Origin: Eledone cirrhosa
Taxonomy: Eukaryota
Direction of reading: 5' to 3'
NCBI GenBank assembly: GCA_964016885.1
Contig: CAXHJY010000152.1
Span: 1-64,000 of the forward strand
Length of the DNA: 64,000 nt
Shown: one piece after another, positions 1,468-14,244 of the stretch
How the letters are laid out: each line of letters begins with the position of its first letter
Numbering within the stretch: the stretch's first letter is position 1
Translations under genes and position numbers: made by a program
Notes under the pieces: generated by a model
Database searches by the model: none
Told to the model about the DNA's origin: nothing
What the model saw: only the letters and a program-made list of their open reading frames with translations

Positions 1468-1866
1468 ATTGTTACACTTTGGGAGGGTCATGTTGCCAAT
1501 AAGAAACACACACACCAGTTGCTTTCACTTCAATTTATTATAAATTAAATTTATAAATTTAGGAATTTATAAATTTCCGGTTGGTTGGTTCCACAACCAG
1601 ACGATTGTTTATATATTGTCAAAGTTCTTTCGTCACACATTCTGTGACCTCTTCAGTGACTGGGGATTCTTTGCTTTGTTTTTGTGCCTCTCCTTTGTTC
1701 TGTCCTACGCCATCTTGTTTTTGTGTGTGTTGTGTGCTTAGTTTGCGCATGTCTTACATCCGGGTGTCTGTGTATGTTTATATTTGCATTTGTTTATTTA
1801 TTTGTGAAAGCAACTGGTGCGTGTGTTTCTTATTGGCAACATGACCCTCCCAAAGTATAACAATAT
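1468..1866 (-). mobile_element. Short element with ~62-bp inverted termini carrying a hammerhead ribozyme (Penelope pLTR-like)
   Basis: 1468-1528 is the reverse complement of 1804-1866; HHR at 1618-1660. Confidence 0.7.
1618..1660 (-). ncRNA. Minimal type I hammerhead ribozyme
   Basis: GTCA-CTGAAGA-G-GTCACA(gaatg)TGTGAC-GAAA-GAAC-TT^TGAC: intact core, stem II and 4-bp stem I. Confidence 0.75.
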
Positions 1867-2129
1867 CGGTTACAACACACGTTTTCAGATAAAGAATCTT
1901 GCTAAATTCAGAAACGATATATATATATATATATATAGAGAGAGAGAGAGAGAGAGAGATAGAGAGAGAGAGAGAGAGATGCGTCTTTTGTGTGTGTGCG
2001 CGGAGATAAATATATATAACACACACAGTCACAGTACGCGGTTGTATAAATAACATTACAAATGTACAGTGACAACAAAGATAATACGTCATTAATGTGG
2101 ATATAAGTTGTAACGATGAAAGAATGGTA

Positions 2130-2696
2130 TTTAACTAATGTATTGGTACGCGATGGGGCCCACCCACAGCCCCGGCGGACAGAATGGTGAAGGCGTTTCC
2201 CCGGAGGACGGCAAGGGAGACGCGCTGGAAAAGCCACTCCAACTCGCGGGCTCACACCTGCGGCTGGCCAGCTCAGCGCCTATGGTGGTGAGTAAGGAGG
2301 TAGCCCTGGGGCCGAGGACACCAGAAGTCTCCACTGCCAGGGGAACGACCGCAAACTGTCGGAGAGCGACCGGTATTTGAGGAGTTTGGCCCCCTCAGCC
2401 CAACGTGCAGCAGAACCTGGGTCAGGTTGCGGCTGCAGAAAGTGTCAGTACAAGTGGTATCCCAGACGAGGGGTTTGCCACCGCGGAACGGGAAGATGGT
2501 CATGCCATCTGGCCTTTTTCCGTTCCCTCGATCCAGCCCCACCGGCTCGAGCTGGGAAGGGAAGCCTGCAGCGTCCAAGCCATGCTTAATGACCTCGTTG
2601 AGGGCAGTATGGCGTGGAATGCGGCCGGCACTGTGGCGACGGGAAAGCGGGTGGAGGCCGAAAGAGTCCATGGTGGAACCGCAGCGACATTTGTGT
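2130..2696 (-). mobile_element. CRE-clade non-LTR retrotransposon, 5'-truncated (Zn knuckle + restriction-like endonuclease)
   Basis: CRCG..H, RH.ALNE, KRPDG, LVWD.TC.DT, VPLAVETSG and QRVSLA.L.GNA motifs across frameshifts. Confidence 0.8.
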
Positions 2697-3229
2697 AAAG
2701 AATAGATAAATAAATAAAAGTTCCTAACTCTCTTTCTTTCTTTCTCCACCCCTCTCTCCCTTTTTTCTCATACCCTCTCTCTCTTTCTTTCGCTCTCTCT
2801 CTCTCTCTCTCTCTCTCTCACTCATACCCCCTCTCTCTCTCTCTCTCTCTCTCTCTTCCTCTACAGAATGGAGAACAATAAAGAACGCGCAGATCTCTCT
2901 CCCCCCCCTCTCTCTCTCTCTCTCTGTCTTTATATATATATGTGTGTGTTTGTGTGTGTGTGTGTGAACCAGCGTTCGTCGCCATTCTCTCTCTCTCTAT
3001 CTGAATATCTTGTACCTCTCTCTGTATAACGGCCTATCTCACTCTCTCTCTCTCTCTCTACATCTCCCTTTCTCTCTTTATATGTATAAGTATATATATA
3101 TGTGTGTGTGTGTGTGTATCAATGACGTGTTCGTCAGAATGTCGTTATGCAGACAGTCAGACATACAGACAGATATTATAAGGGCTCGACGGAGATCGAT
3201 AACACCCCTTTAACAACACAAAATTGAAA

Positions 3230-3369
3230 AATAAAAGCTGCAGTTAGTATCTTTAGACCGCAAGGAATATATAAATATATATAAAGTCAATCGGAGTAGA
3301 AATGTGGCTTTGTATAGACTTTGTAAAAATGAGGACACACAGACCACATCAGTTTTATATATAGAGATA
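3230..3369 (-). mobile_element. Helitron-like 5' end fragment
   Basis: Minus strand begins TCTCTATATATAAAACTG..gtctgtgtgt. Confidence 0.35.
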
Positions 3370-4243
3370 TTGGGTCGTCAAGCATGAAATTTGTAGAATT
3401 TTGTAGAGAAAAAAATTTCTACAAATTTCATACTTCACGATCCAAAAGAAAGAAAACAGTCGAGCTGTTCTCGTGATAGAGAGGTGGCGCCGATACAGTC
3501 GTCGATATAACCACCGTTTAGCAGTATGGCTGAACTGAGCCAAATCACGCACAGAGAATGTATGTGAGCCCGCGGAATGTAGGTCACTACATCACTGCGA
3601 AAAAGGTTGGCAACGTGGCAATAAAAGTTCAACTGAATGAATAAGAAGGGCTGCGTTAAATTCTTACGTCGGTCACCACTTTAGCAGTATGGTAGAATCA
3701 GTGGTCGCCACTTTAACAGGGTAGATTATTAAGTAGTCGTGGTCAGTGTGGTAAGTGATAGTATCCTCGTTGGATTATCTTGTTGACATAGACGTGAGGG
3801 AAGGTCCCTCGATCTATTTACAATATTCCTTTCGTCAGGTCGCCAATTCCAGCAGCATGGATTATAGATGTTATTGAGACACGAGTAACATAAAAATGAT
3901 TTCAACAGCAGAAATTAGAGATGAAATGTATGTTTATTTTTGATGTAGCACAAACAATGTTTGTTAACTTATATGGTTGAAGTTACAGATAAGAAGAGGT
4001 TACAAAAGGGAATGTGCCATTGCGCCGTTAAGCCGGCGAGGCTAGGGGCAATATGTCACCGTTACATTATGCGTGTTGCTGGCTTGAAGTTTCCGGTACA
4101 AGAGGAAGATTCTTCAAATCTTCGTGGGAAATTTCTTCCTCGGGGCGCGTAGGGATACATCCTCTTCTACTGGCGCTGATTGGCTGAACTGAGCCAAATC
4201 ATGCACAGAGAATGTATGTGAGCCCGCGGAATGTAGGTCACTA

Positions 4244-12206: not shown

Positions 12207-12376
12207 CTACTCCAAATACTTGTCGAGTGCTTTATATCAGTTATAAAAATATTTACTTGTTGTATCCCAACAATTTTAAATAGAACTTTTGCATATATAC
12301 ATATATATATATATATATATATATATATATATATATATATATATATATATAAATTTCGCTCTACATGGCTGAATAC

Positions 12377-13085
12377 AATAAATGTAATCTGAGTTTTTCG
12401 AATATTAATAATTGTTTCTACGTTTGGCACAAGGCCAGCAATTACCCAGTGCATTACTGGTACTTTATTTTATCGACCCCGTAAGGATGAAAGGCAAAGT
12501 TAACCTCGGCGGTATTTGAACTCAGAATGACAAGGGCTGTAACTCTATGCGTCAAAGCATGGCGTCCGATCCTTTACTGATACTGCCAATCCACCGCTCT
12601 TTTCGAATATTAATAATAACTTTTCGAATATTAATAATAACATTCGATTCGTTTGCAATTATGCAAATAAGCCTCATTTTTAAAGCCATGTCATAGAATG
12701 AACTCTTCATTCTTGCTCTTGTGTTGGCATGTAAACAGAACTTCAGACACTAATGTTTCTGGGTATCACCCTTCATCAGTACAGCTCACTGTTCACCTGC
12801 CAACTGTCAGAGCTAGTGAAAATATATGCTATTTTCTCAAATATACAGTGACTGATCGGCCTGATTTGCATATTAGCAGACTGGCTGATCAGTCAGATCT
12901 GCATATTAGCAGATCCACTGATCAGCCAGATTTGCATATCACCAGACTGGCCAGTCAGTTTCCTGTATACGAGCGATAAATGGCCGGCTTTGCTTGATAT
13001 GGATCTAAAAATGAGGCTTGTTTGCATAATTGCAAACGAATCGAATGTTATTATTAATATTCGAAAAACTCAGATTACATTTATT
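12377..13085 (-). mobile_element. Element with ~80-bp inverted termini and internal hammerhead (12741-12785), left arm interrupted by a SINE
   Basis: 13006-13085 is the reverse complement of 12377-12411 + 12637-12682; CTGATGA-A-GGGT(gat)ACCC-A-GAAACAT(ta)GTGTC^. Confidence 0.7.
12411..12597 (-). mobile_element. tRNA-derived SINE with Nin-type core
   Basis: A box TGGCAGTATCAG, B box GAGTTCAAATAC, core GCCTTTCATCCTTACGGGGTCGATAAAA; target duplication ttttcgaatattaataa. Confidence 0.85.
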
Positions 13086-13329
13086 ATATATATATCAAAA
13101 GTATATATTGAGTTAGAAACTCAAAGTAGTCCCTTACAATTAAAACAGCTCAAGGAAAATCTGGTCTCTTATGATTTGAACACATATATGTATATATCTG
13201 TGTTTATCTCTCTTTAATTACCCACTACTTGCTACGTTTCACACATTTTTTTGTAAGAAAATGATGATTGATTTTTAAATCAGTGATATAATTTATGGAG
13301 AAAAATAAAGGGAAAATGTTAAAAAAGTA

Positions 13330-13830
13330 GAGGCATTAACTAATAATTTTTGTTGTCATAATTCTAGTAATGTTTTGCCATAGATAAAATGTCTAAATTA
13401 GCCAAATTTTACTAAAAAAAAAAAAAAAGGTGCTTTTTTTTGTTAATTTACATTTAATTAATAGAAAAACCCCATGATAATAGAGATTCCAATACTCAAG
13501 TTATGGGCTTCCAAAATGTTCACTCTTGGGGGTTTAACCCCCATTGGTGTGTCTTAATATTATTGAAATTTGCTGAAATTTTGTGAATAAGCATCATATT
13601 TTGTCATTTACCAATGGCTTAAATTTCATATAAATCGAAGGGAAAACAATTTCAGCGGGGCTTTGTGCCCCCGGGAGACCCCGGGGAACCCTTTGATTGA
13701 AATGAAATAAACTTGTCGAAGTACCCTGGCCAATGTAGTTTCAGAATATATATGGTTATGAGGGTCTTTCTCCAAAACCATAGGAGGAGTTTGTGAACAA
13801 ACAAACAGACAGGAACTACAACTTTATATA
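13330..13830 (-). mobile_element. Non-autonomous Helitron-like element
   Basis: Minus-strand start ..TATATATAAAGTTG..ctgtctgtttgtttg; internal motifs resemble 581-960. Confidence 0.4.
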
Positions 13831-13856
13831 TATATATATATATATATATATATATA

Positions 13857-14244
13857 TATCAAAATAAAGATCCGAAGGCATGGTGTAAATTTCCAATCAT
13901 TTTAATCACCACACATGTTTCAATAAGAGATATATTGATCGTGCGGCCATGATCGATTATCACTGATCTTGTCAGGTGAAAATGAATTGTCTTCAAATCC
14001 TTGATATGAGGGAGAAAATTTAACGATGTTCACTCACTAGAGTTTTGTCCCCCATATCTCTAGTGAGTGAACATCGTTAAATATTCTCCCTCATATCAAA
14101 GATTTGAAGACAATTCATTTTCACCTGACGAGATCAGTGATAATCGATCATGGCCGCACGATCGATATATCTCTTATTGAAACATGTGTGGTGATTAAAA
14201 TGATTGGAAATTTACACCATGCCTTCGGATCTTTATTTTGATAT
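13857..14244. mobile_element. ~185-bp inverted repeat (15-nt spacer) in (TA)n, hammerhead motif in each arm
   Basis: Arms 13857-14042 / 14058-14244 with few mismatches; TCAC-CTGACGA..GAAACATGT..GGTGA at 14121-14194. Confidence 0.85.

What the first reader, a model, noticed from the sequence alone, without database searches (positions are those of the whole stretch)
1468..14244. Recurrent ribozyme-bearing inverted-end mini-elements, mostly in (TA)n: a shared outward-facing architecture
Seen: four elements of unrelated sequence (1468-1866, 11840-12206, 12377-13085, 13857-14244) have inverted termini, sit in or beside (TA)n, encode no protein and carry a hammerhead core (CTGANGA-stem II-GAAA-short stem III). 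In every case the sequence downstream of the HHR is what is mirrored at the other end, so both 3' ends face outward. Solo HHR motifs occur at 5242, 6925, 9631, 10128 and 11664, and a Penelope RT fragment is at 4244. Established: Penelope-like elements carry minimal, often dimer-dependent HHRs in their pLTRs and can leave inverted partial pLTRs. Inference: these are several non-autonomous PLE/retrozyme-like families made by priming cDNA from both ends of a break in (TA)n, and they would be misannotated as DNA MITEs.
Basis: partly seen in the sequence, partly recalled or inferred. Interest (0 to 1): 0.75.

Follow-up and report, generated by a model that had tools for sequence, protein, structure and literature searches.

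The report
Twin-armed Penelope ends plus one retrozyme
Three of the four mirror-ended repeats are cut-short tail ends of ordinary protein-coding Penelope-type jumping genes (a known layout), and the fourth is a 440-base non-coding hammerhead repeat with the same lopsided footprint, so it was likely pasted in by a borrowed Penelope enzyme copying one RNA from both sides of a DNA break.

Summary
The four elements, their inverted ends and their type I hammerhead motifs are real; each belongs to an abundant family. They are not MITEs, and three are not non-autonomous families. E1, E2 and E4 are 5'-truncated 3' ends (pLTRs) of ORF-bearing Penelope-like elements (PLEs): E2 and E4 Hydra clade, E1 a lineage with a C-terminal endonuclease. 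Only E3 is a retrozyme-like unit (about 440 nt, head-to-tail, no conserved ORF). In 46 of 49 classifiable two-armed insertions exactly one arm has the tail. Inner junctions vary, and the two arms agree at 80 of 85 polymorphic-site comparisons (60% in controls). This fits two cDNAs primed from the two sides of a break at two start sites on one RNA. Inverted partner, tail, (TA)n targeting and two start sites are published PLE traits. Less ordinary are the genomic support for twin priming and a retrozyme carrying the PLE footprint. This scan noted the same pattern repeatedly on other DNA of this and other genomes. Cleavage and expression are untested.

The parts
1470..1803 (-). E1 tail-less arm: 5'-truncated 3' UTR/pLTR of a C-terminal-endonuclease PLE
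   Evidence: longer copies continue 5' into GIY-YIG and RT coding sequence (L043, L055, L067, L133, L134)
1622..1656 (-). E1 type I hammerhead core; predicted cleavage after 1622 (UU site)
1804..1917 (+). E1 inverted short arm (1804-1862) plus ~55-nt tail (1863-1917), followed by (TA)n
4244..4780 (-). Decayed PLE RT fragment, Neptune-like by eye; no link found to any of the four families
5242..5275 (+). Solo minimal hammerhead, intact core, weak stem I; same family as 9636 (81% over 145 nt)
6929..6961 (-). Solo hammerhead, intact core, weak stem I
   Evidence: read by eye
9636..9663 (+). Decayed hammerhead (G12A)
10129..10163 (-). Decayed hammerhead (two core substitutions), palindromic stem III
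   Evidence: read by eye
11673..11724 (+). Solo type I hammerhead with long stem II and palindromic stem III
11842..12022 (-). E2 tail-less arm (Hydra-clade pLTR); hammerhead 11941-11893
12024..12206 (+). E2 tailed arm; hammerhead 12105-12153 with wobble-palindromic stem III and 8-bp stem I
   Evidence: same pLTR flanks an RT-EN ORF twice, 4.3 kb apart, in L031
12207..12292 (+). E2 tail (~86 nt); in the full element it lies between the hammerhead and the ORF start
12352..12993 (-). E3 tailed arm: about one 440-nt retrozyme-like unit; tail ~12352-12376; hammerhead 12779-12746 (GUC site)
12408..12598 (-). SINE-like insert in E3 with a duplicated target ('SINE' is my recalled label; not classified by a call)
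12995..13089 (+). E3 inverted tail-less arm, ending in (TA)n
13860..14057 (-). E4 tail-less arm (Hydra-like pLTR), starting 82 nt upstream of the hammerhead, the family's 5'-end hotspot
14058..14240 (+). E4 tailed arm; hammerhead core 14125-14190 with long stem II; cleavage site reads GUG (family GUC)
   Evidence: family linked to RT/EN coding sequence in L128 and L137
14241..14346 (+). E4 tail, with part of the ~135-nt family tail replaced by (TA)n

Best explanation
E1, E2 and E4 are 5'-truncated, two-armed copies of the hammerhead-bearing ends of protein-coding Penelope-like elements, and E3 is a non-coding 440-nt hammerhead repeat with the same footprint; all four were likely made when a PLE RT-endonuclease cut (TA)n on both strands and primed two cDNAs on one RNA. 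Shown: family identity, linkage to ORFs for E1/E2/E4, two fixed 3' end points per family bracketing the tail, variable inner ends, one tail per two-armed insertion, shared alleles between arms. Inferred: one DNA end primes at the far start site (tailed arm) and the other at the near site (tail-less arm). Both cDNAs run toward the RNA's 5' side, stop early and independently, and are joined head-to-head, often through 1-7 nt overlaps, so both 3' ends face outward. When only one cDNA is kept, a solo copy results; a cDNA that runs on through a tandem or circular template gives pLTR-ORF-pLTR or the E3 dimers. E3 is inferred to borrow a PLE protein in trans; which family is not shown. The hammerheads are predicted to need dimers (short palindromic stem III), and cleavage may not be needed for insertion.
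For: ORF linkage: L031 holds pLTR+tail, ORF, pLTR with Hydra motifs RWR, DKT, CxCX5C. L128 and L137 link E4 to RT/EN with CxCX5C. E1 copies extend into GIY-YIG/RT (Pfam GIY-YIG weak, E 0.013, below cutoff). One-tail rule: 46 of 49 two-armed insertions, tallied by hand (E1 10/10, E2 13/13, E3 8/10, E4 15/16; L101 dropped as unclassifiable; p 3.5e-11 against 50:50). Arm concordance: 80 of 85 polymorphic-site comparisons vs 1569 of 2608 in cross-insertion controls; 23 of 23 vs 218 of 660 when the main arm has the minor allele. In 21 of 37 one-tail E1/E2/E4 insertions the tail-less arm reaches further 5' than the tailed arm (hand count; L156 left out), so neither arm contains the other. Tail-less solo copies exist, including ORF-long ones, so the near site works on its own. 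Junctions: 24 of 41 overlap by 1-7 nt, 5 blunt, 10 with inserted bases, 2 with longer overlaps. (TA)n at main-arm ends: E1 29/30, E2 28/29, E4 22/28, E3 16/30. E3: hammerhead spacing 435-443 nt in 4 loci; seamless tail-to-start junction in 8 of 30 loci. Literature: a purified Anolis PLE protein cuts and extends both strands, starts RT at two sites bracketing the tail, and is predicted to dimerise (PMC11167929).
Against: 3 of 49 insertions break the one-tail rule (L116, L125, L144). Shared alleles are also predicted by fold-back copying or gene conversion. Non-nested arms could arise later by asymmetric deletion at a palindrome centre. Loci are the top-scoring 30 of 40 scored among 356-1309 candidates, chosen to match a long query, so they are biased to young copies and long main arms. 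E3 has no nucleotide similarity to the autonomous families examined beyond chance words; its only strong hit there was another E3 copy. Its mobilising enzyme is therefore unidentified, and only 16 of 30 E3 main ends abut (TA)n. In Anolis, initiation was at a site not homologous to the target, whereas the ends here fall at short AT microhomologies. No cleavage or expression data.
Confidence: 0.72

Rival explanations
1. Fold-back self-priming: a single cDNA folds back and copies itself, then joins the other target end at an AT microhomology; later deletions at the centre make the arms unequal. Self-priming, on an antisense template, was proposed for head-to-head PLE palindromes in PMC3846280.
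For: Explains shared alleles and near-perfect palindromes such as E2 (1-nt centre); 16 of 37 one-tail insertions are nested or equal; published proposal.
Against: 21 of 37 are non-nested and would need secondary deletions; tail-less solo and ORF-long copies show the near end is used without a partner; in vitro both strands are extended from two start sites.
Confidence: 0.18
2. All four are separate non-autonomous mini-element families.
For: Very short copies dominate: summed contig depth over E2 falls from over 1e6 near the 3' end to about 1e3 near the inner end (not a copy number). True for E3.
Against: E1, E2, E4 continue into ORFs with scattered 5' truncation points; inner junctions differ between copies, so the mini-form is not itself the propagated unit.
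Confidence: 0.05
3. DNA MITEs with terminal inverted repeats moved by a transposase.
For: Inverted ends in TA context.
Against: Arm length 35-1130 nt, asymmetric ends, many one-armed copies, RT linkage.
Confidence: 0.01
4. The perfect palindromes are assembly fold-back artefacts.
For: E2 arms are 99% identical around a 1-nt centre.
Against: Arms differ by 17-47 per 1000 across families and are asymmetric in a family-specific way. A 61-nt contig of run X1 matches 11993-12053 without change, 30 letters each side of the centre (one short of the tool's bridging rule; possibly the same sample), and many other inverted junctions occur in those contigs.
Confidence: 0.02

Closest known systems
EN+ PLE insertion unit with inverted 5'-truncated copy and one-sided tail (Arkhipova et al. 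2013, PMC3846280, passages; Craig et al. 2021, PMC8557442, passages)
   Same: Head-to-head inverted partner, 5' truncation, tail on one end, partial tandems, (TA)n bias, hammerhead in the pLTR.
   Different: Tails here are about 55, 86 and 135 nt in E1, E2, E4 against the 30-40 nt described; the window copies are so short that no ORF remains. I found no count of the one-tail rule or of arm allele sharing in the passages read.
Hydra clade incl. Hydra-1_Obim (PMC8557442 section 11 and supplement passages)
   Same: E2 parent: RWR (published RWK), DKT, CxCX5C linker, C-terminal GIY-YIG, hammerhead, (TA)n target. E4 parent: CxCX5C, 38-62% identity to E2 protein segments.
   Different: Different families: their hammerhead motifs were not found in the supplement; about 4 kb with long 3' UTRs against <3 kb; E4 has a ~20-bp stem II.
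Poseidon PAc of Anolis (Frangieh et al. 2024, PMC11167929, parts 1-2 of 4)
   Same: Two RT start sites downstream of the hammerhead bracket the tail; both strands cut and extended; AT-rich target.
   Different: There the sites lie inside the ORF and are non-homologous to the target; in E2 and E4 they lie upstream of the ORF start, at short AT microhomologies.
Metazoan non-LTR retrozymes (Cervera and de la Pena 2020, PMC7229834, passages; Li et al. 2026 preprint 10.64898/2026.07.22.740005, part 1 of 5 and passages)
   Same: E3: non-coding head-to-tail unit, one type I hammerhead per unit, GC 39%.
   Different: 440 nt against ~300-390 nt; mostly monomer-sized dispersed copies with inverted arm and tail. 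'Tail' occurs 0 times in the preprint's main text and 'inverted' 0 times in the 2020 paper; their supplements were not seen. Circular RNA not shown here.
Minimal and atypical PLE hammerheads (Cervera and de la Pena 2014, PMC4209133, passages)
   Same: Extra nucleotide after A9, short palindromic helix III implying dimer action (E2, E3, E4, 11673).
   Different: E1 has a non-palindromic loop 3 and a UU site; activity untested.

Membership tests
EN+ Penelope-like elements (E1, E2, E4) | Linked RT plus C-terminal GIY-YIG ORF in longer copies | tested here: met
   recognised by motifs; Pfam support weak; all ORFs seen are frameshifted or partial
EN+ Penelope-like elements (E1, E2, E4) | pLTR from partial tandem arrangement | tested here: met
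   E2 in L031 and E4 in L128; for E1 no 5' pLTR running into the ORF start was recovered
EN+ Penelope-like elements (E1, E2, E4) | Inverted 5'-truncated partner and optional tail | tested here: met
EN+ Penelope-like elements (E1, E2, E4) | Type I hammerhead in the pLTR, conserved across copies | tested here: met
Hydra clade (E2, E4) | RWK-like and DKT motifs, CxCX5C linker, (TA)n target | tested here: met
   DKT seen in E2 only (E4's fetched copy has an internal deletion)
Hydra clade (E2, E4) | Phylogenetic placement among reference PLE RTs | not tested
   no reference set on the script machine; assignment rests on motifs and by-eye comparison
Nematis or Neptune clade (E1) | CX2-5CxxC linker before GIY-YIG | tested here: met
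   short linker resembles Nematis
Nematis or Neptune clade (E1) | No insertion in fingers between RT motifs A and B | tested here: not met
   A-B spacing 129-134 aa in all 38 measurable of 43 homologues against 60 aa in the E2 RT; E1 is not filed in these clades
Non-LTR retrozyme (E3) | Non-coding head-to-tail unit with a type I hammerhead per unit | tested here: met
   the antisense frame reaches 107-119 aa in 2 of 16 natural hits and stops by 51 aa in the rest
Non-LTR retrozyme (E3) | Transcription, self-cleavage and circular RNA | not testable with these tools
   needs RNA data or bench work
MITE | Fixed symmetric TIR, fixed length, constant TSD | tested here: not met
   TSD itself not readable in (TA)n

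The most novel reading that the evidence does not exclude
PLE insertion is intrinsically twin-primed: a dimeric RT-endonuclease uses the two start sites of one RNA for the two sides of a double-strand cut, which the one-tail rule records genome-wide. A hammerhead RNA circle (E3) has acquired such a pair of start sites and is copied into (TA)n by the same route, giving insertion-level evidence that retrozymes ride on PLE enzymes.
Probability: 0.55. Interest if true: 0.62.

Novelty: new member of a known kind. Interest (0 to 1): 0.36.

Why it matters
How PLEs build tandem and inverted insertions is named as an open question in PMC8557442, and the enzyme that moves animal retrozymes is inferred, not shown. 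Young, abundant families with a near-strict one-tail rule and a matching retrozyme give a concrete substrate set for testing both. In practice, such stumps would be mislabelled as MITEs or unknown repeats. The overall architecture is already published, and this scan has noted it many times, which limits surprise.

Tried and rejected
Rfam scan: no hammerhead among the 150 of 242 rows shown. My first descriptor missed E1, E3 and E4 because it allowed no unpaired base beside stem II and only a 40-nt gap; replaced. Two own-genome searches with the 3' part of E2 returned nothing (AT-rich or very common words are skipped), so E2 has no unbiased 5'-end sample, and its apparent clustering of 5' ends at -81 to -89 may be ascertainment. 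Run search: no RNA holder listed. The first allele-concordance count (87 of 108) included short/long boundary positions, which are tail artefacts; it was redone without them. The antisense 129-aa frame of E3 was rejected as unconserved. A second hammerhead-like box 125 nt upstream in E4 was rejected as canonical because it lacks GAAA. No E3 parent was found among the seven long loci compared. Look-ups of earlier scan findings by sequence for E3 and the E1-type RT gave nothing. Five paper searches listed no paper with 'twin priming' among the 20 shown and none describing retrozyme insertion ends; the library lacks most subscription journals and Repbase.
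Full report
Setting. The window is the start of contig C179 of a 3.0-Gb animal genome. The closest named protein homologue of one resident element is from Octopus vulgaris at 69% identity, so an octopod host is likely (inference).

Observation. All four elements (E1-E4 in window order) have inverted arms, share no sequence and have no ORF above 93 aa. 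A type I hammerhead descriptor gave 5 hits, against a shuffle mean of 0.035 for 1-16000 and 0.145 for the whole window; 0 of 200 shuffles reached 5. The hits are E1, both arms of E2, E3 and the solo motif at 11673. E4 has the core with a long stem II, and 25 of 30 loci read GUC at the cleavage site, but both window arms read GUG, so this copy is predicted inactive. Stem III is a wobble-palindrome in E2, E3, E4 and 11673, the dimer-dependent design described in PMC4209133 (passages). Cores are conserved across 30 loci per family; the copies are young, so this shows inheritance rather than selection. Of the other solo motifs two have intact cores with weak stem I and two are decayed. The RT fragment at 4244-4780 is real and Neptune-like by eye; the E1 and E2 parent proteins do not hit it.

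Families. Own-genome searches gave 356, 802, 1309 and 1187 first-look candidates for E1-E4, 40 scored each, 30 loci fetched each. E2: L031 holds pLTR plus tail, then an ORF, a long 3' UTR and a second pLTR 4.3 kb downstream. Its RWR, DKT and CxCX5C motifs match the Hydra definition (PMC8557442 section 11) and resemble Hydra-1_Obim. E4: L128 has a truncated pLTR with tail, Hydra-like RT and EN fragments and a second pLTR; L137 independently links the same EN to the arm. E1: most copies extend 5' into GIY-YIG and RT coding sequence, with scattered truncation points. E3 differs: shared upstream sequence is only a further copy of the unit, hammerheads are 435-443 nt apart in 4 loci, 8 of 30 loci show the tail running seamlessly into the unit's start, and no frame is conserved. 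So three elements are stumps of autonomous PLEs and one is a retrozyme-like parasite.

The missed tail. Each family ends at one of two points, and the stretch between them is the tail. In E2 and E4 it lies between the hammerhead and the ORF start of the full element. Each window element has it on one arm only. By hand, counting each insertion once, 46 of 49 two-armed insertions have exactly one tailed arm: E1 10/10, E2 13/13, E3 8/10, E4 15/16. The exceptions are L116, L125 and L144; L101 was dropped as unclassifiable. Inverted arms span 35-1130 nt, and 24 of 41 junctions overlap by 1-7 nt. This excludes MITEs.

Mechanism. The two arms of one insertion agree at 80 of 85 polymorphic-site comparisons, against 1569 of 2608 across insertions, so they come from the same source copy. 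In 21 of 37 one-tail E1/E2/E4 insertions the tail-less arm reaches further 5' than the tailed one, which a single folded-back cDNA cannot give without later deletion. Tail-less solo copies, some ORF-long, show the near site is used on its own. Frangieh et al. showed a PLE protein cutting and extending both strands, with two RT start sites bracketing the tail and no need for hammerhead cleavage in vitro (PMC11167929 parts 1-2). I therefore favour twin priming from the two sides of a cut in (TA)n, with end-joining of the two truncated cDNAs (inferred, 0.72). Fold-back self-priming (PMC3846280 passages) followed by central deletion stays open (0.18). Sampling favours young copies with long main arms. 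For E3 the carrier is unknown.

Lead from earlier notes. Earlier scan notes report a small hairpin just beyond both end points in Hydra families. In E2 a similar stem closed by GAGY follows both ends, and in E4 it follows the far end; the predicted folds are weak, -3.8 to -10.1 kcal/mol for the whole segments, with no shuffle control. E3's tail has a similar GAGC motif by eye; E1's does not. This is only partly tested.

Comparison. Inverted truncated partner, optional tail, hammerhead in the pLTR and (TA)n bias are all published for PLEs. Retrozymes as PLE dependants are proposed in PMC7229834 and the 2026 preprint, on grounds of co-occurrence and pLTR similarity; I did not find insertion-end evidence in the passages read, and their supplements were not seen. 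PMC13282606 (passages) lists 31 recently active Penelope-like families in O. vulgaris and does not mention hammerheads. The scan itself has noted this footprint repeatedly in this genome and in others; those notes are unreviewed and are not independent support.

Verdict. These are new families of known kinds. The added value is the counted one-tail rule, the arm allele concordance, a retrozyme with PLE-type ends, and two side leads (the E1 RT insertion and the E4 5'-end hotspot). Interest 0.36.

Noticed in passing
L133:2887-3690, L134:1018-3033 (parent of E1, window 1470-1917); P0001-P0043: [quoted passage not shown] All 38 measurable homologues share the spacing and 10 show the C-terminal EN motif. 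PMC8557442 describes an insertion in fingers (~20 aa) for N-terminal-EN clades, not canonical PLEs; its supplement lacks the motifs searched. Possibly an undescribed PLE lineage; no tree built.
   Followed up: partly
window 14043-14057; L143, L144, L145, L150, L157, L163: E4 arms start 80-83 nt upstream of the hammerhead in 7 of 34 arms of a sample not biased at that end (7 of 20 within -150..+25; p about 1e-4 after correction; arms listed by hand, blast-break and complex rows left out). The site follows an initiator-like TCA, a hairpin, and a CUGAGGA box lacking GAAA. Transcription start, RT stall or RNA cleavage are not distinguished.
   Followed up: partly
window 12408-12598; L103, L107, L113, L116, L121, L124, L125: A SINE-like element sits at the same AT-rich site of E3 in the window copy and in 7 of 30 loci by exact junction match, with differing 5' ends, suggesting repeated independent insertion at a hotspot.
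   Followed up: partly
window 10371-10528: Another small inverted-arm element around (TA)n/(ATA)n, 84% over 166 nt, sharing sequence with 9884-9977; not examined.
   Followed up: no
window 9762-9800: A short inverted piece follows the 3' end of the 9618-9762 copy of the 5242 hammerhead family, suggesting a fifth family with related behaviour.
   Followed up: no
window 8483-8866 and 9134-9517: 384-nt direct repeat at 97% identity, 651 nt apart, beside (TA)n; could be another partial-tandem element.
   Followed up: no
window 12852-12951: E3 contains an internal 33-nt tandem repeat (3 copies) whose copy number varies between loci.
   Followed up: no
window 35318-40519, 47355-48616, 58873-64000: A 5.2-kb degenerate (TA)n tract, a 28-nt minisatellite and a 48-nt satellite of over 100 copies.
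   Followed up: no
window 15292-16207, 26056-28428, 41129-43581: Decayed copies of a LINE-like RT element (label from recalled motifs; repeats).
   Followed up: no
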